Shown piece after piece: positions 8,038 to 49,526 of a DNA stretch of 64,000 bases. Origin of the DNA: Sarea resinae (Eukaryota). The DNA is taken from NCBI GenBank assembly GCA_026026165.1, contig JAPEUD010000027.1, forward strand, positions 186,001 to 250,000, in the 5' to 3' direction. The stretch's first letter is position 1, and every line of letters begins with the position of its first letter. Below the pieces are notes generated by a model. It made no database searches and had not been told where the DNA came from. It saw nothing but the letters and a program-made list of their open reading frames with translations. A program made the translations under genes and the position numbers.

Positions 8038-9430
8038 GGTCGGATCCCGTTGACCTCGTCTTGAATATCATATCGAACAAGAAAGGTCCATTGAGGATGC
8101 GATGATGCTCTACCTCCAATAAATTGGCACAGTCACGACAGATGCCAGCATGCACGACCTTGACAGTGAGGAAGGCAAACTATCTCCAGTGATCGTCTCT
8201 CCGCGAGGGTAGAAGCATCAACCCACGTAAGGCACGAGCGTCGTCTTTCAGCTGAAGTCATTTACGAAGTACGAAGGAGTACATGGCCTGGTACGGCGAT
8301 CGACAACGCAATACTTAGCAGACCCTTCGCAGATCTATACGGTAGACTGCAGGCGGATCGTGAGCCGAAGCCTTTTGATGTCAGCAGTTGACGATAGATC
8401 TCTTTCGGACCGCATTTCTCCTGATGGCACTGCATCAGTGTTGTCCTATATATGGCTTTGCAGCGATACGTTAGCACGCGCGGAGGATCCAAGGTGCGAA
8501 TATAAACATTGGGCTAAAAACAGCAAAAAATAGATTTCTCTCTGTTTTGTCAATATTGTATTATTTACAGGATTCACCTCCTTTTGATTCTTTCCAGAAG
8601 AGAGTCAGGTCACTTAGATTAAGAGAATATCCGACATCATTTTCTACTCCTCTTCAAAGGTGCGTTCTGGGCACATGTGCTTCCTGTGTGCTAGAGACAC
8701 ACAAAGAGAGCGGGGGAAAGGAGGCTTCAGATTTCTTAGACTACTTCTTTATTTGCCTTGATTAATCCACGAAACTGGGTGGATGGGTGGTTGAACACTG
8801 TGCGCTATGCGATTAGAAAGATGGTTCAACGAGCCTGGCCTAGAAGACTGTACTAGACGGGCTGAGAAAAGATGATTGACGGCCCGCTGGTAAGTAAGAG
8901 TTCTAGTTGATCACGATGCCCGTCTCATAGCAAAGGAGCTTGCTGAAAAAAGGTTTACAGCTGCTTGTAGTACAAGGCGTAAATTTTCGCTGGTTGACTC
9001 CTCTGGGATTCCCCTCCCCGCCGCCGCCGCCCGATCTATGAATCTATGATCCACGCCGGCCCTTTTCCATGCCCACCGTTTCCGCCATGCAATACCCACA
9101 GGTCCCCCAAGGGGCCTAGCGGAAAACGACTGCGTTGATCTAAGATGATGAAGAAAATCGTCGTGAATACAAAAACGCGAAACAAGTCGCTTGATGACGC
9201 CCTTTTCAACTGAATCACCATACATGCAAAGCAAGCACTGCTGAATTGCCTCGCCGTCGAGGCTTCAAGCAGCTTTTGGAACACAAAAACGTTTTGCCTC
9301 CTCGGGGCTCAAAGAATTCGTACATGCCTTTTTCCAAAATTCAAAATCATCCGTTGATCGTGCGATTCCATACTGTACAGGTCTTTTGGAGCTAGACAGC
9401 CCTCAAAATGCTGAATGACTTTTCCCCTGG

Positions 9431-10646
9431 TCATGATGCTGAACTTTTCTGCCGATCAGGAGTGCTGTGTTCCTCGTTGCTTGGATGAACACGGCGCTTG
9501 TCGACGTGGTGATTATTTGGGCCGCTGCCCTTTTCGTGGCGAGCTTGATCAATGGCAGACCGCTGTGCTATACTATCGTCATGACTTTTCCAAACAATGT
9601 TAGTGTCCGGAGGGAATGCCAAGACCCGTTTGATAGTCTCCCTGGATGAATATTAGCACGCAAACGCTGTATAATGTTATTTAGCGAGGCGGGTACCTTA
9701 TCTTGATGTTCCGTCCACCATCAATTCTGGTCCACACACTGAGAACATCTTCTCCACTTCGAACGCTGAGAACTGCACCACAGACTTCCTCCCCAGCTTC
9801 AGCAAATTGGTCGCCCACGATAGCTAGCAGAAGATCCTCCCAGTAGCGATCAGCCACGCCTTTCTTCAGCCTAATGATCCATTTGCCGCCTCTCCTATTT
9901 TCTTTGTCCTCCCAAACGGGACGGACGCCTTTCTTGAAGACATGGTAATCGGATACTGACGGCAAGGACGAGGGGCGTTTGAGATGGCAGTACAATGTCC
10001 AGAATGACTGGACAGATGCAAACGACGCCAGTGCTATTGTGGACTTCTCATAGTCCGAGTATTTAGAAGTAGGAGGACGGTACCAGACGACCCAGGTGTA
10101 CTTCAGTGGATGCTCTGATTGATTCATGCTTGTATTGTGTTGGATCGAAGATGGGCTTTCTTGCTTAGGGTTGGGAACGGTCTCTTTCAAAAGATCTTTC
10201 TCCTTCTTTTCATTGGAAGGCGAGGGTGTCGACCCCGGACCCGCAGCGCTTCCAAAGTCTAGCGCATTTCCAGGAGACTTGGGTGTCTTCGCGGATCCGA
10301 AAGATGCGAAAGCACCTGATCCAAGTCCGAACGCGGACGACGCACCAGATGTCGGAGAAGATATGTTGGTGGTGCTCAATGGGGATATGGCATTGAACGG
10401 GTTTGATCGTCCATGCGAGGAGCTATCACCACCGAAACGTCGAGAGGATGAGTAATTACGAGTAGGATGATCGGAATTGTTGCTGTCGGGATTGGACATT
10501 GATAGCGAGAGCTTGCTGGAGCTGTCGTGTATGATTGTTAATTGTCAATAATGCTCGGCTGGTCCATCAGGGATGTGCGAGTGCGCTCCAATGAAAAGTG
10601 CATGTACTTACTTTGTGCGGCGCGTCCATAGATTGTTGGTATCCAT
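9431..10646 (-). CDS. Translation initiation factor 4E family protein, class II (4E-HP/eIF4E2-like)
   Basis: Exons 10646-10612 (MDTNNLWTRRTN), 10521-9697 and 9641-9431. Motifs HPLKYTWVVWYR, SDYEKS, FWTLY, PVWED, GGKW, CGAVLSVR. Tyr replaces Trp at the W43/W56-equivalent positions, as in class II members. Confidence 0.9.
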
Positions 10647-11441
10647 TGAGGGCAGAGATAGAATCAGAAGGGAAGGAAACAAAGGTCAGGAGAGGGTCTG
10701 AAGCTTGGTGATTCGGAAGGAGCGAACAAGCAGCGACAAGAAGAAAAGGAGGGAAGGGACGATTGTGTGCACTGTCACCAGTGCGCCACTGTGAGCTGAG
10801 GACTTTGAAGATTTAAATATTCGATCGAGGAAGCGACGGAGCAGGCAGTGAGAGGTCGAGTATCGAGAGCGGTTGTGACTTGGAGAGCAATAAATGCGGT
10901 AGGATGGGGAAGAGCGAGCGGTGAGTGGTGATGATTGGGTTATTGCTTTTGGTGTTCAGGTGCAGTGGTAGAGGTGGTGGTGGTGATGATAGGTTTAGGT
11001 AGGTAGGCAAGGTAGAGATGGATGGGTGTTTCCTGTGAAGAGAGCGAAGAGGGAAGCACCGTTCACCTGTACGGGACCAGGTACCCTCTCTCGCCTGGCG
11101 CACTACCTGGCATGCAGGTAAACTTCAGCGGGCACTATCAGAGCAGAGAAACTTCTATGCTCGTACCGTGTACCCCGAATGACGGTATCTCGCAACGCTT
11201 TCAGGTTCCCACCCCACTAGAGGATTAGCGCCCTTCTTCGATCCTCCTCCTCGCCTTCTCGCCTGCGTTTTCCCTTTCTTTTCTCCCTTCTACAACCAAG
11301 ACCACCAACTCAAATCATCGTCAGCTCGAACATTCATTTCTCAACTCAGCTGGCGACTCCGATGTGTGTGTCGAGAATGCCTTATACCCCTCTTATAAAA
11401 CCGTCATCAGGAGGGCCCCTCGTGCGGCTTCCCATGATCTG

Positions 11442-11659
11442 ATGATGACCTAAATACTGGGACATTCACGTTCTGGACAGCACCCGTGCCTTGCCTCATT
11501 GCCACCGGTGAGCAAGCCAGATCCTCTTTGTCTTCTCTGTCACCGTGTGGCTTCATGAAGAAACTCTTCAGCTCTGGTAAACCGAACAGCTCAGCCGCGG
11601 TTTACACTCTTGCTTTTTGCATGACGCTGGTCGAGCATGAGGTGAAAGGCAAAGTCTGA
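11442..11659 (+). ncRNA. Candidate large box C/D snoRNA (~220 nt), intron-encoded in a non-coding host transcript
   Basis: C box ATGATGA 11442-11448 and D box CTGA 11656-11659. Flanking complementary stems (gagggc 11411-16 / gccctc 11683-88; gtgcggc 11422-28 / gtcgcac 11670-76) and several internal hairpins. Lies in a putative intron from GTGTGT 11364 through CTGAC 11712 to TAG 11734. Confidence 0.6.
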
Positions 11660-11938
11660 TAGCACCCTCGTCGCACTCAATCGCCCTCTCAGTGTCTCAT
11701 AGCAAAGAAAGCTGACCACATCCTCGTGCCATAGTGTATGTAGTATAGAAATGGGCATCCTGGATTCTTTCAATAACGACTTCATATTCTCATCTACCTG
11801 ACCTGCTACTTTACATTCTACGTGATGTCTTATGCGTAACGACGAGATCCTTCAATCTATCTAACCAGGCATCCCAGGCTCGCAGGAACTATCTAATGCC
11901 TTGCTCCGTTCTATATGTCACCGCCTGCTCCAAGCTCG

Positions 11939-13617
11939 TCACAGAAGACTACTAGCGCTCTCGTTCTCCCTCTTCCACGCTTCGAAATCGAAACCCAATT
12001 CCTCCATCGTCCTGATATCATGTCTCGCCTCGCCCTTCTCCATGAATGCCTTCTTGATCGCCGGGAATCTTTCCCTTGTCCATCTCTCTTTCTCGTCCCA
12101 GAACGGTGGCAGCTTACCCAGGCCATTGTTATCCAAGCCCTTTCTTCGCTCAGCCTGTTCACTCCACTCCCTCAAGTCGTTGATATTGTCTGCATCAAGT
12201 GGGAACATGAGAGTGTGGTACTCTCTTCCGGCGCCTCGCTCATCGACCACTGAATCTTCCCAGGCTCCCATGGTACTCTGAGACGGTAGAGCCAGGCGAC
12301 CAGACCAGACGCGAGCCACAACAGCCGCTTGGGCTTCCGATGTTGGAAAGGGAATGACCTTCTGTGGAAGAGCGACGAATGCGAGAGTGGGATGATAGAT
12401 GTAGAAGATGTGCTTGTATACATGCTGAATGTGCGTCCCGTCTGAGACGGGAGGTGGCTCCAATGCTGGAATGAATGGCAAAGAGTACAGGTAACCGGTA
12501 CAGAAGACGATGGCATCTATGTCTTTCTCGATGTGACCATTCGCAAAACGTACCGATCTTTGATCTAGGATAAATTCAACTATCTCGGGGTATTCTTCCT
12601 TGTTTTGCTGCGGTCCGGGAGATAAATACGACGCTGATCTTTCCGAAGAAATCAAGGGCAGCTTGGAGACAGTGGATATCTGTGAACCAATATCCAAGCC
12701 AGATGCAGAGTTTCCTACGACTATGACTTTCTGCGCGAGTGTCAGAAAAAGTATATCATGAACCAGGGTATGACTGAGGTTTGGTTGAATAGCAAAAATG
12801 TCGTAGAAGTAGGCAGCCATCATGCAGTCATTGAGGAGATGTCATGCTAACCTTGTCTTTAAATGCGTCTGGGGTCCGGAAAGATTTCGAATGAGATACC
12901 ACACCCGGGTATCTCTTGTTCCATTCAGCAAGCCCTTGAATATCGGGAATATAGGGGACAGAATAATGGCCATTGGCGACGACCACTGCGTCATATACTT
13001 CTTCCTTCTCCTCTCCTGCTTGCAGATCGAGAGTCTTTACCAACCAAGTTTCCTGTCCCTCAGGAGCGCGGCTGGGCCTGACATCCAACACCTGAGTTTG
13101 GAATTTGATTAGATGTCGAACGTCTTTGGAGTATTCTTCGAGATATCCCGCGACAGTGTCATGTTTTGGGAATAATTGCGCCTCTTCTGGAAATGCTAGA
13201 TCGGAGAATCGCATGATGGTTTTAGGGATATTCGTCTCGAGGCGTTCATATAGCGGCGTTACGAAAGTTGCTTCTCTCTTATTTCCCTTCCCAACCGCTT
13301 CGTCTTCTGCACTACGCCATCTTGGCTTCTCGACAGGAGTATGAGGATCCGTCTGCGGGACCTTCTCTAGTCCGTCACCATTTTCTGGCGAGTATTTCCA
13401 GATGCCGGTTGGTGTGCTCTGCTGTTCAATGACGTCAATTTTCTCGAACGCCTTTTCTGCCAGCAGATATCTAATGTGCTGTTAGCTTTCAACTGCTCAA
13501 TAATTCTAGTAGGCCGTCGTGTACGTCCTGAGTCACCTACTTTGCGGCAGCTAGACCGGCAGGTCCTGCACCAATTACCGCGACTCTCTTGACATTGAAC
13601 TTCTGAATTGCGACCAT
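11939..13617 (-). CDS. FMO1: Flavin-containing (thiol-specific) monooxygenase, Fmo1-like
   Basis: Exon 1 MVAIQKFNVKRVAVIGAGPAGLAAAK (FAD GxGxxG), then YERLETN, DAVVVANGHY, FMO fingerprint-like YPGVVSHSKSF, NADPH motif VVGNSASGLD and CTGY. Two introns. Confidence 0.85.
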
Positions 13618-14767: not shown

Positions 14768-17700
14768 ATGTCCGGCAACAGTCCCGGAAAAGGCATGTTT
14801 TCGAAGTTGACAGGATTCTTGAGCTCCAGAGCCGGCGTGACGAATGACAGCCAGGTCGGTACGAACTGTGTCCCGATTGATCTCATCGATTGAAGAGCGC
14901 CATCTTCGTGTCGCTCGGCAAATTCCACGTCTAACGATGAGATGTTTCTAGGCAAGCCACGGTGAATATCAGACCGTGGAGGCATCGATAGCGGCTCTTT
15001 CACCGTATGGGAGTCGGCGTGCCCTCACTAGAAGGTGAAGTTTCCTTTCCGACCTTGGATCGACTGCTGTTTGTCATGTTCTGAAGTGGCTCATGGATCT
15101 TACTTCTAGTGAGAGAAAGCTTCAATCTCGTCGACCAGAGCGGGGCATCTTCGAAAAGAGCGCGGACGAAAGGCGATTGTGTGGTGACTATGAGTACGAT
15201 ACCTTCTTGGTAGTTTGTGTGCGCCTCTCGAATGTGTCTGACGGCTTTGATAGAGTGCCATTAGATGCGGTTCCGATATCGACGCCGACTTCTCAATATC
15301 CAGACATGGCGAAGCCAGTAAGTTGGTTTCTCGCACGGTCATGTTGCTTGCCACTTACTCTCTCGCTCTCTTGGAACAGCCCGGCCAAGCATTTCAGCCC
15401 AGAAACACCCTCTCGCAAGCCGGCAGATTTACGACCGGGTCGGAAGGTTTCCAAAAAAATCAGTCGCCCAAGAGAGGCCATACAACTGACCAAAAGCCTG
15501 CTCCAAATCCTGCAAGTCACGCTATCTTACAGCCAAATAAAACGTTCGACCTCCACGCGAGTCAAGATCTGCAGCCAAGGAAGAGGATGAAATGGAGTCA
15601 TTCGCCATCCGAAGACGACTTTCTTGAACTCAAGGGAGACCCTATCGGCGGGTTCGAACATGTTGTTCGACGCGTTCAACCTAGTGATACGCCCTCAATC
15701 AATAGTCAAGGTTCTGCCATGATAAAACCCCTTCAACATGGGATGAGCAACCCCTCTGAGTACCATAAAGTCGAAAATACGGTCTCCGTGCCATCATCAC
15801 GACGAAAGCGTCGGCGATATTACACTATCGGTCAGAATGGAACAACTTCCAGGCTTCGCCCAAATCAGTCTTCATCTTCTCGTCCACATCTTCGTCGCCC
15901 TTCCAATCTAATAGAAATCTCAGAGGATGAAGACTCTCAATCAAGGACAATGAATGGGCAAGATTTTGATTCAGACCCACCTGAAGTGTATGGCGATCAT
16001 TCTAGTCGGAAATTTCACGGCACAGACTCGATCGAGCATGCAGAGCGCCAGAAGCCAAAATCTAGCATGAGCAGTTTCCAACAGCCATCCAAGAACAGTA
16101 AAGACCGCTTCAATACGACCGGCGATGGCCTGCCAGAGGCCCCTCGCGGCTCTCGTTCGAAGCCCGAGAGAAAGCCTCATGTCGAGGTCGATCTTACTGA
16201 GGGTGGGGAACAGAACATATCGAATTTTCCATCCCCTCCTCTGCGACATAAGTTTGTTCGGGACGATGATGAGACGCAAGCTAGTCCTGACGAACTACAT
16301 ACTGGTACGACTTTCGGAGCTCATGGTAGGGAGATATCGCCTACTTTACCCCCTCTTTTAGACCGGCGGAAGGATGAGTCCTTACGGCGCGGCCTGCTAC
16401 GACATGTGACACCTCCAGATCATGACCAAGGTCTATCCAAGAGCGACATTCAGATGACGGAATTTGTGAGCTCCGGCAAAATACCAACACAACGTCATGT
16501 TCCCGCAAAACCTCCTAGCTCCACCAAAGCTGTGAAGAATCCCAAAAAGTCTTCTTATCCGCTGAAGACCTTTAGCCGAGGAGGGAAGACCATTCACGAA
16601 TGCACCCTTAACATACAGATGGATGGAACATTCATTTTTGACAATTTGGACGATGACCTCATCGCAGAGTCCAGACTGCTTGGAGAGCTGCAGGTTCACC
16701 CGGTCCAAATACGGCAGCTTTGCAAAGTGCTTTGGGCGAACGGGGGCTGTAAACTTCGTCTGGAAACATCGAAGATTGGCACAATCGATCACCGCATTGA
16801 TATTGAGACTCGTTCGGAAAAGGTTGCGTCTGACCTGATAATAGATCTGGAAAGCCGAGAGAGTAGTTGCAAAGTGGTCATGAAGACGAAGTACGTACAT
16901 CCTCAAGAGCGAGTTTGTGATTGACCTAATTTTTTCAGGGATGAAATGGACCGAATCTTTTCGAAGACTGCTTCGGAATTGGCTTCTTTCAAAAACCAGA
17001 ACGGCCATACATCGTCAGACGCCCTTGAATTGAAGCTTTTTGAAAATAGGCAGATACGTGTCGGAGCGAAAGTGGGGGAGAAGAAGAAGTCGCAAAAGCC
17101 ATCAGAAGCCAGACCAGCGGAACGTCTCCAGCCTGCGACTGGCGTATCTCGCGAGTCCTCACAAAACCGTACGAGACTGCGCGAAGGATTGCGCAACGAT
17201 CGGGATGAGATTGCTGAGCCTCTCCATAACACTCGCCAACGAACGCGATCTACGGCTGCTATAACCAGTTTACGGCAGTCATCATCTCCCACGCGAGTAG
17301 TCCGCGAAGAAGAGAAGTTTTCAAAGCGAGTGGGCCTAGGCCCGCCCTGGCACAAGTACGCGGGACTCCCTAGAATTCAAATTCTTTTGCTAATTTGTTC
17401 GCCAGACCGCTTGTCTATCCACCAGAAGGCCCTAAGAAGGTCACTGTTGAATATTTTGACCTCTTGCGTTTGGATGAGGGCGAGTTCCTTAATGATAATT
17501 TAATCTCCTTCTACCTTCGGTTCGTCATAGTGATTCATCTCTCAATTGATTACCGCTAATTTTGCTAGCTATTTGGAGTATAAGATAGAACAGACGTGCC
17601 CCGAAAAAGCCAAGAAGATGTACTTCTTCAATACCTATTTTTATGCTAGCCTGACCAAGACTGCGAACGGGAGGCGGGGCTTCAATTATGAAGCCGTACA

Positions 17701-47061: not shown

Positions 47062-49526
47062 TCAGACACCGAGAACACTCCACAGCGCGCCCGGCTCGAC
47101 GTAGGCGTGGTGGATGACGTTGACGAGCCAGTAATCACGCTGGATGCCGCGCAGCAGGCGTCCCGACGCGCCGCCGCCGTACACATGGCTCCATTCGCTC
47201 CAGATGCTGAAGGCCTCTTCGGCCCAGGCGGCAAAGGAGACGGATTCGATTATCGTGGGGGTGATGATTCTGGTGGTTTGGAAAAGAGGGGGAGGACGTT
47301 AGTGGATTTTTCTTCTTTGTGGGTTGTGGGTTTTGGGTTGGTTTGAGGGGAGTCGGATTGGGTTGGGTTGGGTTGGGTTGGGTTGGAAGGTGATTTGTGG
47401 GCCCAATGGGGGTTGGGGGGGGGGGGGGGGGGTTTGTGGGATGGATAAGAAGGAGGGATGGGAGAATAACAATCTATGAGGGAATGGGGGAGGGAGGAGG
47501 TAGGAGGGAGAAGAATGAGGAAAATAAGACTGACTCTTTGCCCGGAAAAGCACCCCAGGTGACCGCATTCACGGCTTCTCTGTCCGACGAGGCAAAGTCG
47601 CCTGCACTGTTGACCGCGTAGTACGACACGTCGTCCAGCTCGCTCAGTTTCTTTTGGAGCGCCAGCCAGTCTTTGGCGGGGAGGAAGAGTTCGACGAATG
47701 CCTGTTCAGTCAGATCACGTATTAGCGCTGTATTTCTATTAGATGACGTGGACTTGCACCACTACTGCTTCGGTCGTCGTAATTGGCACGGCAGGGCGAT
47801 GCTAACCTTCTGAAACACAAACCCGTTCTTCGGACCCCAGCCGAAGACGGCATCGTTGCTCGGCACGCCGTTCACCGCCGGCTGGCTGGCTACCGTCCAC
47901 CACCCCTTGCGGTGCAGAGCCAGGAGCTCGTCACGGATGACGGCCGTTTCTTCGTTGAGGCCTTCTTCGCTCCAGGGGATGGCGTCGATCTCGCCGAGGA
48001 TGTGCCGGCTGAAGATGTTGGAGATGTCTTCGGGCGTCGTGGGGTGGCCCCAGAGTTTGATGGCCCGGGGAACGGAGACGTGAAGAGAGACACCGTAGCC
48101 GTCAATCTCGCCAAAAGCTTGATGTGGGAAGGTATGTTAGTTATTTTTGGGTGATATAAAAGAGCTTACGTACCTGGAGATCGAGCGTCTCCCCATCTGC
48201 CATTAGGAAAATCGTCCCACGTGGCCTCTCTACCTAACGATCCCTCTCCCTCTGATATCGCTAGTGTATTGGCACGCGAATTGATCTTCTCTTTCGGTAC
48301 GCCTGCTTCGTCTTCAAGCGCTTCACGGCTGGCGGTACTCGATATTGAAGGTCTGTCTACGACCACTCGATTATGCGGGGTTGAATTTGCAGAGGACAAT
48401 CTTCGTCGGTCTTTGACTGGCTTGTGATCCGTTCCGTTCGTCTCTTTGGTTCTATCGGCGAGGAGAAAACCTCCAGCATCATCGACTGCGACGCTGTCGC
48501 CACTCGGCGTTGGAGGTGGTATCAGATGGCATCTTTCCAGTATCAACGAGACTGCTTTCTCGAGGTTGAGAGTAAAGAAGTGAAAGCCTCGGGGCGCATC
48601 GGAGGAAGTATGTTTGATTCGGTCGACCATCTCGCTAAGAATATCAACGCCCACCTGCTTCACAGCTTCGTCGTCTCCCTTGATAGGTTCTATCCTATCC
48701 GCATACTCGGCCGGGATTTTCGCATGGCTCAATTTCGTCGTTCTCGTGAGGATCTGGTAACTCTGGATTGGCATCAATCCTGGAAGGATAGTCACATCCT
48801 TGAAGGCCCCTGACGGATGCGATCTCAGCGTAGCCTCATAGTCTCGGTAAGCTTCGACGTCGTAGAACAGCTGCGTGATGATAAAGTCGGCACCAGCCTT
48901 GGTTTTCTCCACCAGATACGGAAGGTCGCGCAAGGGGTCCTGAACTTTCGGATGCGATTCGTCGGCATGACCTTCTGGGTATCCAGCCACTCCGACGCAG
49001 AAATAATCCCCATACCGTTTCCGTATATATCTGACGAGATCCACGGCATAGTTGAACTCTTCATTGCTGTCACCTGCGAGCGGAGAATCCTCCTCTCGAT
49101 ATTCCTCGCTCCGTGGCGGGTCTCCCCGTAATGCCAAGATGTTGCGAATCCCTAAAGCCTTTGCTTCTTCCAGTGCGTCGTCTATCAGCGCCCGGTTCAT
49201 GTTGGTGCATGTGAGGTGGAGACATGTCGTCAATCCCAATTCCCTCTGGCAGATTTCGGCCAACTTCAGAGATTTCGTGGCCGTGCTTCCACCGGCGCCC
49301 CAGGTCACGGTTACGAATAAGGGTCTCAATGCTCGTGTCATGCGTTCCAGTCGGGCACGAAGGTTCATGGAGCCCTGTTTTGCAGAGCACGATATATTAG
49401 CCGCAGCTCGGCGCGGAATCGGAGTCAGAATTAGCGAACCATGGACGTTTTTGGAGGAAAGAACTCCAAAGAGAAGTAATTGGCATCTTTGGGCAGCGCC
49501 GCAATCTTGTCGGTGATTTTGTCCAT
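47062..49526 (-). CDS. MET12: Methylenetetrahydrofolate reductase (Met12-like paralog) with SAM-binding regulatory domain
   Basis: MDKITDKI..YFSLEFFPPKT, VTWGAGGS, HLTCTN, LALRGDPP, GYPEGH, ITQLFYD, HFFTLN, WDDFPNGRWGDARSP, SQPAVNG..GWGP..FQK, AVTWGAFPGKE|IITPT. Four introns. The MET12 versus MET13 assignment is tentative. Confidence 0.9.

What the first reader, a model, noticed from the sequence alone, without database searches (positions are those of the whole stretch)
11364..11734. Hidden non-coding gene: large structured box C/D RNA inside the intron of a non-coding host transcript
Seen: in the gap without a credible ORF between eIF4E2 and FMO1, a pyrimidine-rich promoter-like tract (~11230-11290) precedes a donor GTGTGT (11364), branch point CTGAC (11712) and acceptor TAG (11734). 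Inside are a C box ATGATGA (11442) and a D box CTGA (11656-59), 75 nt before the 3' splice site. External stems gagggc/gccctc and gtgcggc/gtcgcac bring the boxes together. Internal hairpins include gtaaaccg/cggtttac (11577-84/11598-605), tgaaga/tcttca, ttgctttt/aaaggcaa and ccaga/tctgg. Known: fungal snoRNAs often sit in introns of non-coding hosts at about this spacing, and typical methylation guides are under ~120 nt. At ~220 nt with a hairpin just upstream of the D box, this looks like an atypical (chaperone, acetylation-guide or orphan) snoRNA. I could not match it from memory to U3, U14, snR190, snR4 or snR45.
Basis: partly seen in the sequence, partly recalled or inferred. Interest (0 to 1): 0.8.

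Follow-up and report, generated by a model that had tools for sequence, protein, structure and literature searches.

The report
Two small nucleolar RNAs, not one
The supposed single large box C/D RNA is better read as two conserved neighbouring guide RNA genes, an H/ACA RNA for two ribosomal pseudouridines and a normal-sized box C/D RNA that probably targets the U5 spliceosomal RNA.

Summary
The pattern alone (C box, D box, flanking stem) is common: 16 cases in this window against 5.4 in shuffles.

Three distinct metagenomic relatives and an Rfam sub-threshold match present in 4 of 4 sequences (snR42) show that 11300-11467 is an H/ACA snoRNA.
- The "GTGTGT donor" is the 3' strand of its 5' lower stem.
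- The invariant GGGACATTC is lower stem, ACA box and 3' tail.
- Its two pockets fit two uridines of large-subunit rRNA.

The D box belongs to a separate box C/D RNA of about 105-130 nt (about 11545-11676). It has its own C, D' and C' boxes. Both of its conserved antisense elements match the universal U5 loop I motif.

An RNA-library contig runs unspliced across both proposed splice sites. The donor is absent in 2 of 4 sequences.

The genes are real, conserved and not in Rfam above threshold. They are new members of known kinds. The U5 target is an inference, because no U5 sequence from this fungus could be obtained.

The parts
11230..11290 (+). CT-rich tract, a likely core-promoter region of the snoRNA transcription unit
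   Evidence: Read directly. A CT-rich tract lies at the same aligned place in all relatives. Promoter function is an inference.
11300..11467 (+). H/ACA snoRNA (snR42-like), about 168 nt: hairpin, H box, hairpin, ACA
   Evidence: Rfam snR42 sub-threshold match at the same place in 4 of 4 sequences: 19.4, 39, 27.8 and 24.4 bits, against a gathering score of 61. MFE folds give hairpin-hinge-hairpin. 89.2% of 120 cells are paired, against 24-53% with slid partners.
11300..11307 (+). 5' hairpin, lower stem, 5' strand (GACCACCA)
   Evidence: Pairs with 11363-11372 in the MFE fold. L095 has GGCCATCT / AGATGGCC at the same aligned place.
11308..11317 (+). 5' pocket, 5' strand (ACTCAAATCA)
   Evidence: 9 bp to GATTTGAGT of a fungal 25S in 3 of 4 sequences.
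11318..11356 (+). 5' hairpin upper stem TCGTCAGCT 11318-26 / AGCTGGCGA 11348-56, with loop
   Evidence: 9 pairs, 94.4% of cells paired.
11357..11362 (+). 5' pocket, 3' strand (CTCCGA)
   Evidence: 5 bp to TCGGA next to the target U in 4 of 4 sequences.
11363..11372 (+). 5' hairpin, lower stem, 3' strand (TGTGTGTGTC).
11374..11379 (+). H box AGAATG (AGA conserved; L034 AGATGA, L095 AGACCA, L025 AGAAGG)
   Evidence: Alignment. The variability of position 6 of the H box is as stated in PMC5824354 (passage read).
11388..11390 (+). 3' hairpin, lower stem, 5' strand (CCC)
   Evidence: Pairs with GGG 11459-61. The fourth pair is U-A in 2 sequences, A-U in 1 and unpaired in the window.
11391..11401 (+). 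3' pocket, 5' strand (TCTTATAAAAC)
   Evidence: TAAAAC pairs with GTTTTA of LSU rRNA, 6 bp in 4 of 4 sequences.
11402..11447 (+). 3' hairpin upper stem 11402-11 / 11438-47 and apical stem 11414-19 / 11424-29.
   Evidence: Upper stem: 10 pairs, 90% of cells paired. The 5' strand varies CATCATC / CATCGTC / CATTGTC against an invariant GATGATG, and all changes are wobble-compatible. The snR42 consensus carries the same ugauGAC here.
11448..11458 (+). 3' pocket, 3' strand (ACCTAAATACT)
   Evidence: ACC(TG) pairs with (CA)GGT, 3-5 bp in 4 of 4 sequences. There are 14 nt between the upper stem and ACA.
11459..11467 (+). GGG (lower stem), ACA box 11462-64, 3-nt tail TTC
   Evidence: Invariant in the window, 3 relatives and a second RNA-library contig. 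Similarity ends right after TTC.
11468..11544 (+). Variable spacer with a species-specific hairpin (window: CTTGCCTCA 11490-98 / TGAGCAAG 11509-16)
   Evidence: Not alignable between relatives. L034 is about 60 nt longer here.
11545..11676 (+). Box C/D RNA, about 105 nt from C box to D box and about 130 nt with the outer stem GTGTGGC 11545-51 / GTCGCAC 11670-76
   Evidence: The RNA-library contig has no difference from the window up to 11681.
11555..11561 (+). C box ATGAAGA (L034 ATGAAGA, L095 ATGAACT, L025 ATGACGG)
   Evidence: Only TGA is invariant.
11573..11581 (+). D' antisense element TCTGGTAAA
   Evidence: TCTGGTA is invariant. GGTAAA pairs with UUUACC of the U5 loop I motif. The fifth base upstream of D' is G in 4 of 4 sequences.
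11582..11585 (+). D' box CCGA (CTGA in L095 and L025, CCTA in L034)
11589..11636 (+). C'/D' stem GCTCAGCC 11589-96 / GGTCGAGC 11629-36 with an internal variable loop
   Evidence: RNAalifold pairs 257-264 with 300-307. Most cells are kept, with one-sided G-U changes.
11637..11643 (+). C' box ATGAGGT (GTGAAGT in L095, TTGAAGC in L025)
11643..11651 (+). Second antisense element TGAAAGGCA (AAGGC invariant)
   Evidence: 6-9 bp to UGCCUU(UUA) of the U5 loop I motif in 4 of 4 sequences.
11656..11659 (+). D box CTGA
   Evidence: GTCTGA is invariant in 4 of 4 sequences.
11677..11762 (+). 3' trailer of the precursor.
   Evidence: Covered by the collinear contig. All of that contig's differences from the window lie at 11682 or beyond.

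Best explanation
The gap between the eIF4E and FMO genes holds a short + strand transcription unit with two snoRNAs in tandem.

1. An H/ACA snoRNA of about 168 nt (11300-11467) of the snR42 family.
- Its 3' pocket is set to pseudouridylate the LSU rRNA uridine in GAGACAGGU-U-A-GUUUUACCC. This is the site of yeast snR42, 25S U2975 by recalled numbering.
- Its 5' pocket is set for the uridine in CUCGGA-U-G-GAUUUGAGUA, about 25S 756 in a Hypocreales-like rDNA and 776 in yeast numbering as recalled.

2. After a variable spacer, a box C/D RNA of normal size (about 11545-11676).
- Its D' antisense element places the conserved C of U5 snRNA loop I (human C45) at the fifth position upstream of D', so that Nop1/fibrillarin would 2'-O-methylate it.
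- Its second conserved element (AAGGCA) pairs with the other half of the same loop, as an accessory or second guide.

Both RNAs would be cut out of one unspliced precursor by trimming to the snoRNP boundaries.

Shown here: the conservation, the folds, the box layout, the complementarity to rRNA fetched with tools and to the published U5 loop motif, and cover by a collinear RNA-library contig.

Inferred: the promoter, the mature ends, separation into two RNAs, and the modifications themselves.
For: L095 and L037 are the same sequence, so there are 3 distinct relatives.

H/ACA RNA:
- Rfam snR42 matches at the same place in 4 of 4 sequences: E = 0.014, 7.6e-8, 1.4e-4 and 1.4e-3. The alignment covers the whole 3' hairpin.
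- My four-helix structure pairs 89.2% of 120 cells, against 24-53% when the partners are slid. 3 of 30 pairs have changes on both sides. 0 of 500 shuffles reach the paired percentage and 5 of 500 reach the covariation score.
- Single-sequence MFE folds give hairpin-hinge-hairpin.
- ACA plus 3 nt marks the exact end of similarity in the window, the 3 relatives and a second RNA contig.
- There are 14 nt from the upper stem to ACA.
- Pocket complementarity: 6 + 3-5 bp in 4 of 4 sequences for the 3' pocket, and 9 + 5 bp in 3 of 4 for the 5' pocket.

C/D RNA:
- GTCTGA, TCTGGTA, AAGGC and the C'/D' stem are invariant, and the rest varies.
- C-to-D length is 105-108 nt in 3 of 4 sequences. The script stopped at an earlier GTCTGA in L095.
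- The G at position 5 upstream of D' is present in 4 of 4 sequences.
- The D' guide pairs 6 bp to the loop motif in 3 of 4 sequences (5 bp in L095). The second element pairs 6-9 bp in 4 of 4. The motif UGCCUUUUACY is from PMC6679479 (passages read).
- Cm45 is widespread in eukaryotic U5 but absent in S. cerevisiae (PMC5733568, passages read).

RNA library: a 438-nt contig is collinear over 11332-11762. It has no difference from the window before 11682, while the neighbouring FMO contig differs at 18 places in 384 nt.
Against: - All snR42 scores are below Rfam's gathering score (61 bits). The best is 39.
- There are only 4 distinct sequences. Two pairs of them are close kin, so covariation counts are small.
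- The window's own 3' lower stem has only 3 clean pairs, and its H box ends in G.
- Both sides of the 5' pocket leave one unpaired snoRNA base at the top. The distance to the H box is 17 nt in the window and L034 (15 in L095 and L025).
- L025 has lost the 5' pocket match (1 bp).
- The C box of the C/D RNA is degenerate: ATGAACT in L095 and ATGACGG in L025. D' is CCGA in the window and CCTA in L034.
- Terminal stems are weak outside the window (5 bp).
- The verified U5 pairing is only 6 bp plus 6-9 bp against an 11-nt motif. By my rough estimate, such a double match somewhere in about 6 kb of stable RNAs is not rare unless register and site are taken into account. The extension into stem Ic rests on a recalled yeast U5.
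- The rRNA used comes from contaminant rDNA contigs in bacterial assemblies, not from this organism.
- The contigs come from an RNA library that may hold DNA, and they give no strand or ends.
- Two features are not explained by the two-RNA model: a long-range complement GAGGGC(C) / G(G)CCCTC(G) of 6-8 bp in 4 of 4 sequences, and the perfect RUGAUGA.
Confidence: 0.7

Rival explanations
1. One reading: one long box C/D snoRNA running from ATGATGA (11442) to CTGA (11656), held by external stems. It may be a member of the orphan N. crassa CD53 family.
For: - A perfect RUGAUGA and a CUGA are invariant in 4 of 4 sequences.
- GAGGGC(C) upstream has a 6-8 bp complement downstream of the D box in 4 of 4 sequences: window GCCCTCT, L095 GGCCCTCG, L034 CCCTTG, L025 GCCTTC.
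- PMC2780460 (table read) lists Nc CD53 as a 212-nt orphan, intergenic, seen by cDNA and northern blot.
- PMC5824354 (passage read) says CD_53 is the only fungal C/D family of 200-300 nt and has no clear target.
- In this reading D', C' and D stay the same, so the U5 guide would still work.
Against: - The C box is paired within a hairpin that aligns to snR42, whose consensus carries the same ugauGAC.
- An ACA ends the conserved block 19 nt after it.
- No stem lies next to the two boxes.
- The 3' partners of GAGGGC sit at different distances from D (about 13-44 nt) and show only one-sided changes.
- The motif pattern alone is at chance level.
- The CD53 sequence sits in a PDF supplement I could not open, so identity is untested.
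Confidence: 0.1
2. The H/ACA RNA is real, but the downstream block is not a separate snoRNA. Either the two domains stay joined as one compound H/ACA-C/D RNA of about 380 nt, or the block is a processing or termination element.
For: - One contig covers both parts.
- The long-range complement GAGGGCC / GGCCCTC could tie the domains together.
- The C box of the C/D part is weak in L095 and L025.
- Compound C/D-H/ACA guides for U5 exist in animals: U85, in PMC5733568 (passages read).
Against: - The spacer is free to vary in sequence and length, with +60 nt in L034.
- The block has a full C-guide-D'-stem-C'-guide-D layout with 12-13 nt between C' and D.
- In U85, as I recall it, the H/ACA domain lies inside the C/D domain, not in front of it.
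Confidence: 0.12
3. Both snoRNAs lie in an intron of a non-coding host. The transcript is spliced at 11364 / 11734 in this lineage, and the RNAs are released from the lariat.
For: - GTGTGT fits the fungal donor consensus GTRNGT (recalled).
- CTGAC lies 19 nt before TAG.
- GCTRAC aligns in the window, L034 and L095.
- Most N. crassa C/D snoRNAs are intronic, 45 of 55 (PMC2780460, passage read).
Against: - L095 and L025 have no GT at or near the aligned place.
- The GT repeat is the 3' strand of the H/ACA lower stem, so splicing there would cut the snoRNA in two.
- The only contig over the site is collinear, and no joint was reported. Contigs show presence, not absence.
Confidence: 0.05

Closest known systems
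snR42 (Rfam RF01265), the yeast H/ACA snoRNA that guides 25S pseudouridine 2975 (site as recalled)
   Same: - The 3' hairpin aligns base for base: lower stem, UAAAAC pocket strand, upper stem with ugauGAC, ACCUG pocket strand, ACA.
- Both have the same predicted LSU target sequence.
   Different: - Scores of 19-39 bits are under the 61-bit gathering score.
- The 5' hairpin is short: about 185 model positions are skipped.
- That hairpin carries a pocket for another LSU uridine.
- PMC5824354 (passage read) reports snR42 (HACA_33) as not found in Pezizomycotina.
snR80, the yeast H/ACA guide for 25S pseudouridine 776 (recalled, not tested)
   Same: The 5' pocket here fits the uridine in CUCGGA-U-G-GAUUUGAGUA. 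By the recalled 20-nt offset between N. crassa and yeast numbering, this is position 776.
   Different: No Rfam match to an snR80 model at E up to 10 (window) or 5 (relatives). Here the pocket sits in the same RNA as the snR42-type pocket.
U85 / SCARNA10, the animal compound C/D-H/ACA guide for U5 Cm45 and pseudouridine 46
   Same: The predicted substrate and nucleotide are the same: the C of U5 loop I (PMC5733568, passages read). A C/D unit and an H/ACA unit are physically linked.
   Different: - No sequence match in Rfam.
- The domains lie in tandem with a free spacer.
- The H/ACA part looks rRNA-directed.
- Fungal loop I, if it ends in CC as in the recalled yeast U5, has no U46.
Nc CD53 / CD_53, an orphan 200-300-nt box C/D family of Pezizomycotina
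   Same: That matches the published description (PMC2780460 table; PMC5824354 passages).
   Different: My reading splits the locus into two RNAs. If CD53 is this locus, its 'C box' would be the H/ACA stem.

Membership tests
Box H/ACA snoRNA (class) | Hairpin-hinge-hairpin-tail fold | tested here: met
   MFE folds of 4 of 4 sequences. 89.2% of 120 cells are paired in four helices, against 24-53% when slid.
Box H/ACA snoRNA (class) | H box ANANNA in the hinge | tested here: inconclusive
   AGA is conserved in 4 of 4 sequences. The sixth base is A in 2 (L034, L095) and G in 2 (window, L025).
Box H/ACA snoRNA (class) | ACA three bases from the 3' end | tested here: inconclusive
   ACA at 11462-64 is invariant, and similarity ends exactly 3 nt later. 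The mature 3' end itself was not measured.
Box H/ACA snoRNA (class) | Bipartite pocket around an unpaired U-N, 14-16 nt from the H or ACA box | tested here: met
   3' pocket: 6 + 3-5 bp in 4 of 4 sequences, 14 nt to ACA. 5' pocket: 9 + 5 bp in 3 of 4 sequences, 15 nt (L095, L025) or 17 nt (window, L034) to the H box.
Box H/ACA snoRNA (class) | Binding of Cbf5, Nhp2, Nop10 and Gar1, and pseudouridine at the target | not testable with these tools
   Needs RIP and pseudouridine mapping.
Rfam snR42 (RF01265) | Score at or above the curated gathering score (61 bits) | tested here: not met
   19.4, 39.0, 27.8 and 24.4 bits. 33.9 bits on the hairpin alone.
Rfam snR42 (RF01265) | Same guide pocket and target as yeast snR42 | tested here: met
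   The pocket strands align to the model consensus. They pair with CAGGU-UA-GUUUUA in two LSU rRNAs fetched here. The position number 2975 is recalled.
Box C/D snoRNA (class) | Box C RUGAUGA near the 5' end | tested here: inconclusive
   ATGAAGA in the window and L034, ATGAACT in L095, ATGACGG in L025. Only UGA is invariant.
Box C/D snoRNA (class) | Box D CUGA near the 3' end | tested here: met
   GTCTGA is invariant in 4 of 4 sequences.
Box C/D snoRNA (class) | Terminal stem joining the two ends | tested here: inconclusive
   7 bp GTGTGGC / GTCGCAC in the window. Only 5-bp candidates in the 3 relatives.
Box C/D snoRNA (class) | Internal D' and C' boxes brought together, with 10-21-nt guide spaces | tested here: met
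   D' is CTGA in 2 sequences, CCGA in 1 and CCTA in 1. C' is TGA(A/G)G in 4 of 4. The conserved stem GCTCAGCC / GGTYGAGC lies between them. The C'-to-D space is 12-13 nt.
Box C/D snoRNA (class) | Antisense element ending next to D or D', with the target base opposite position 5 | tested here: inconclusive
   6 bp to the published U5 loop motif, with G at position 5 opposite the loop C in 4 of 4 sequences. The further 3-4 bp rest on a recalled yeast U5. No U5 of this fungus was available (one search found none).
Nc CD53 / CD_53 | Sequence similarity to the deposited N. crassa CD53 | not testable with these tools
Intron-hosted snoRNA | Conserved splice donor, branch point and acceptor around the snoRNA, and a spliced junction in RNA | tested here: not met
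   The donor is absent in 2 of 4 sequences. The donor bases pair within the H/ACA stem. The one contig over the site is collinear.
Acetylation guides snR4 / snR45 / U13 | Two antisense elements flanking the CCG of 18S h34 or h45 | tested here: not met
   No conserved pair of elements was found. The isolated hits (CCACCAACT in the window and L034; AGGCCTTGT in L034) are not shared.

The most novel reading that the evidence does not exclude
Filamentous ascomycetes keep the widespread 2'-O-methylation of the U5 loop I cytidine (human Cm45), which budding yeast lacks. They guide it with a hitherto unassigned box C/D RNA that is co-transcribed with the 'missing' Pezizomycotina snR42 orthologue. This tandem H/ACA-C/D unit may be what was catalogued as the orphan 200-300-nt CD_53 family, and it could be an evolutionary cousin of the animal compound U85 scaRNA.
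Probability: 0.3. Interest if true: 0.6.

Novelty: new member of a known kind. Interest (0 to 1): 0.45.

Why it matters
- It shows how box motifs alone can mislead. A UGAUGA inside an H/ACA stem and a true D box 215 nt away looked like one giant atypical snoRNA.
- It supplies a candidate for snR42, which the 2018 fungal snoRNA survey could not find in Pezizomycotina.
- It offers a testable guide for a spliceosomal U5 loop modification in fungi, and a possible explanation for an orphan family.
- None of this is a new kind of system.

Tried and rejected
- Rfam. There were 0 hits at gathering scores in the whole window. U3, U8, U14, snR190, snR4 and snR45 gave nothing at E up to 10.
- No genome is held for the window. 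No earlier notes exist.
- rRNA target search for one long C/D RNA. No antisense element of 10 bp or more is shared by all sequences.
- A 25S site (GACAGCAGGACG...CATGGAAGTCG). L025 scored 26.9 against a shuffle maximum of 19.9 +/- 1.3 (0 of 60 shuffles). At that site 1 of 60 shuffles matched L095, 23 of 60 the window and 46 of 60 L034. I dropped it as a family target. It remains unexplained for L025.
- My first composite rDNA reference was wrong beyond +1170, because L160 carries an insertion there. I rebuilt it.
- Acetylation-guide test on 18S h34 and h45: nothing conserved.
- Minus-strand C/D reading of the upstream block: the box degenerates in L025 and L034, and no rRNA match was found.
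- RNAalifold on the whole stretch gave a poor consensus that paired the boxes.
- Read laying. No contig lay on 10700-11331, 11763-11787 or 12172-12500, and no joint was reported. Contigs cannot show absence, so I draw nothing from this.
- The LSU family search on assemblies failed three times. An LR12 primer pattern found nothing. A U5 family search found nothing, also in the controls.
- Literature searches for a printed fungal U5 loop-plus-stem sequence found none.
- The supplements of PMC5824354 and PMC2780460 may hold the CD53 and HACA sequences, but could not be opened.
Full report
**Observation**

The flanking genes are an IF4E-domain gene (9681-10499, minus strand) and an FMO-like gene that ends at 11939 (minus strand). 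An Atlas look-up places the IF4E protein among Ascomycota clusters.

The motif pattern alone is weak evidence. A RUGAUGA followed within 60-320 nt by CUGA, with a flanking helix of at least 7 bp, occurs 16 times in this window. Twenty shuffles gave a mean of 5.4. The fold of the whole element is only 2.2 sd better than shuffles. Rfam finds nothing at gathering scores in the 64 kb.

**Relatives and RNA**

A metagenome scan used a pattern taken from the window. Only 4 of the 120 share more than the pattern itself. L095 and L037 are the same sequence, so there are three distinct relatives: L034, L095 and L025.

Their alignment shows sharply bounded conserved blocks:
- a long block from about 11298 to 11467, ending in GGGACATTC;
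- an unalignable spacer whose length varies;
- a second set of short invariant blocks: ATGA, TCTGGTA, GCTCAGCC, GGTYGAG, AAGGC and GTCTGA.

One public RNA-library run (a wood-decay metatranscriptome, kept as contigs) holds the stretch.
- A 438-nt contig is collinear with 11332-11762. It has no difference from the window before 11682.
- The contig over the neighbouring FMO 3' end differs at 18 of 384 places.
- A 90-nt contig from another organism matches 11399-11451 and then diverges, but keeps GGGACATTC.

Contigs give no strand, ends or level, and the library may hold DNA.

**The upstream block is an H/ACA snoRNA**

With relaxed thresholds, the only recurring Rfam match is snR42, an H/ACA family. 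It lies at the same place in all four sequences, at 19.4, 39.0, 27.8 and 24.4 bits. On the hairpin of L034 alone it scores 33.9 bits with E = 1.7e-7. All scores are under the 61-bit gathering score.

The alignment covers the whole 3' hairpin of the model: lower stem, UAAAAC pocket strand, upper stem, ACCUG pocket strand and lower stem. The ACA follows directly after the aligned stretch.

In window coordinates the parts are:

| Part | Coordinates |
|---|---|
| 5' lower stem | GACCACCA 11300-07 with TGTGTGTGTC 11363-72 |
| 5' pocket strands | 11308-17 and 11357-62 |
| 5' upper stem | 11318-26 / 11348-56 |
| H box AGAATG | 11374-79 |
| 3' lower stem | CCC 11388-90 / GGG 11459-61 |
| 3' pocket strands | 11391-401 and 11448-58 |
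| 3' upper stem | 11402-11 / 11438-47 |
| Apical stem | 11414-19 / 11424-29 |
| ACA box | 11462-64 |
| End of similarity | 11467 |

Single-sequence folds give this hairpin-hinge-hairpin shape. On a four-sequence alignment, 89.2% of 120 cells pair, against 24-53% with slid partners. Three of 30 pairs change on both sides. No shuffle of 500 reaches the paired percentage.

The lower stem of the 5' hairpin is GGCCATCT / AGATGGCC in L095 where the window has GACCACCA / TG.TGT.GTC.

- The 'C box' is the invariant 3' strand of the upper stem. Its partner varies CATCATC, CATCGTC and CATTGTC, each change wobble-compatible. The snR42 consensus carries the same ugauGAC.
- The 'donor' GTGTGT is a stem strand.
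- The invariant GGGACATTC is stem plus ACA plus tail.

**Targets of the H/ACA RNA**

No rRNA of this organism was available. I fetched eukaryotic rDNA that contaminates bacterial assemblies and annotated it with Rfam. One set is a Hypocreales-like fungus by its ITS, which is my reading.

- The 3' pocket pairs 6 + 3-5 bp around the U in GAGACAGGT-T-A-GTTTTACCC in 4 of 4 sequences. That rRNA sequence is identical in two distant LSU rRNAs. By my recalled numbering this is yeast 25S U2975, the snR42 site.
- The 5' pocket pairs 9 + 5 bp around the U in CTCGGA-T-G-GATTTGAGTA in 3 of 4 sequences and is lost in L025. This is about position 756 of the fungal 25S, or 776 in yeast numbering by the recalled 20-nt offset.
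- The distance from the upper stem to ACA is 14 nt. The distance to the H box is 15 nt in L095 and L025 and 17 nt in the window and L034.

The fungal snoRNA survey states that snR42 (HACA_33) cannot be found in Pezizomycotina (PMC5824354, passage read).

**The downstream block is a box C/D RNA of normal size**

The invariant D box (11656-59) has a nearer partner, ATGAAGA at 11555-61. Between them the layout is canonical:
- a guide space ending in the invariant TCTGGTAAA (11573-81);
- D' (CCGA in the window, CTGA in L095 and L025);
- a conserved stem GCTCAGCC / GGTCGAGC;
- C' (ATGAGGT);
- a 12-13-nt space holding the invariant AAGGC;
- the D box.

An outer stem GTGTGGC 11545-51 / GTCGCAC 11670-76 closes it in the window.

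There are weak points. Only TGA of the C box is invariant, and terminal stems are poor in the relatives.

**Target of the C/D RNA**

No rDNA match of 9 bp or more is shared between sequences. L034 and L025 each have private matches through non-conserved bases.

Both invariant elements fit the conserved U5 loop I motif UGCCUUUUACY (PMC6679479, passages read):
- GGTAAA pairs with UUUACC. This puts the loop C opposite the fifth base upstream of D' in 4 of 4 sequences.
- AAGGCA pairs with UGCCUU (6-9 bp in 4 of 4 sequences).

Together they cover the whole loop.

That C is Cm45 in human U5 and is guided there by the compound U85 scaRNA. The modification is widespread but missing in S. cerevisiae (PMC5733568, passages read).

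The further pairing of (C)TTC with the 3' strand of stem Ic rests on my recalled yeast U5 sequence, not on a tool result. No fungal U5 could be fetched. I put this target at a little over even odds.

**Intron and host**

The donor is absent in L095 and L025, and in the window it lies inside the H/ACA stem. The one contig over the site is collinear. A GCTRAC aligned in three sequences downstream remains a loose end.

The simplest reading is a short independent unit behind the CT-rich tract, processed at both ends and in the spacer. This is an inference.

**What stays unexplained**

- GAGGGC(C) in the H/ACA apical region has a 6-8 bp complement downstream of the D box in all four sequences.
- L025 carries a 12-18-nt complement to 25S in its spacer, well above shuffles.
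Its sequence could not be seen.

**Verdict**

These are real, conserved snoRNA genes, and new members of known kinds. The single large intronic C/D RNA is not supported.

Noticed in passing
L025:345-665 (minus strand), spacer just upstream of its C/D C box: A CGTCCTGCTGTC(GGGATG) stretch is complementary over 12-18 nt to a universally conserved 25S segment (GACAGCAGGACG). Next to that segment lies a site complementary to the H/ACA apical strand. The score was 26.9 against a shuffle maximum of 19.9 +/- 1.3. It is not shared by the window or L034.
   Followed up: partly
window 11410-11416 with 11683-11689, and the same places in L034, L095 and L025: There is a long-range complement between GAGGGC(C) inside the H/ACA 3' hairpin and a G(G)CCCTC(G)-like stretch downstream of the D box. 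It is 6-8 bp in all four sequences, at varying distance from the D box. It could be a precursor fold or chance.
   Followed up: partly
L160 (about +1178 from the ITS4 site): The Hypocreales-like 25S on this contig departs from its near-identical copies (L165, L182) right after GACAGCCGGACGG. This looks like an insertion, possibly a group I intron, in the LSU gene.
   Followed up: no
L121-L190 (genome contigs): More than 62 bacterial or MAG assemblies carry eukaryotic rDNA contigs. They include fungal, plant-like and yeast-like units, among them a nearly complete 8971-nt rDNA repeat in L187 and a full LSU in L190. This is contamination.
   Followed up: partly
L001-L120: About 110 of the 120 metagenome pattern hits share the same 30-nt match at 80% identity. 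They are mostly gut-metagenome contigs, so they appear to be one conserved bacterial gene that contains the pattern by chance.
   Followed up: no
window, e.g. 9145-9439(+), 16266-16562(+), 47261-47530(+), 7075-6876(-), 42674-42454(-): Fifteen other C-box/D-box pairs with flanking stems of 7-9 bp were listed by the chance-control script. None has an Rfam hit and none was examined further.
   Followed up: no
window 11712-11734 and aligned places in L034 and L095: A GCTRAC followed by AG 10-20 nt later aligns in three of four sequences downstream of the C/D RNA. It could be a remnant or real branch/acceptor, a termination signal, or chance.
   Followed up: partly
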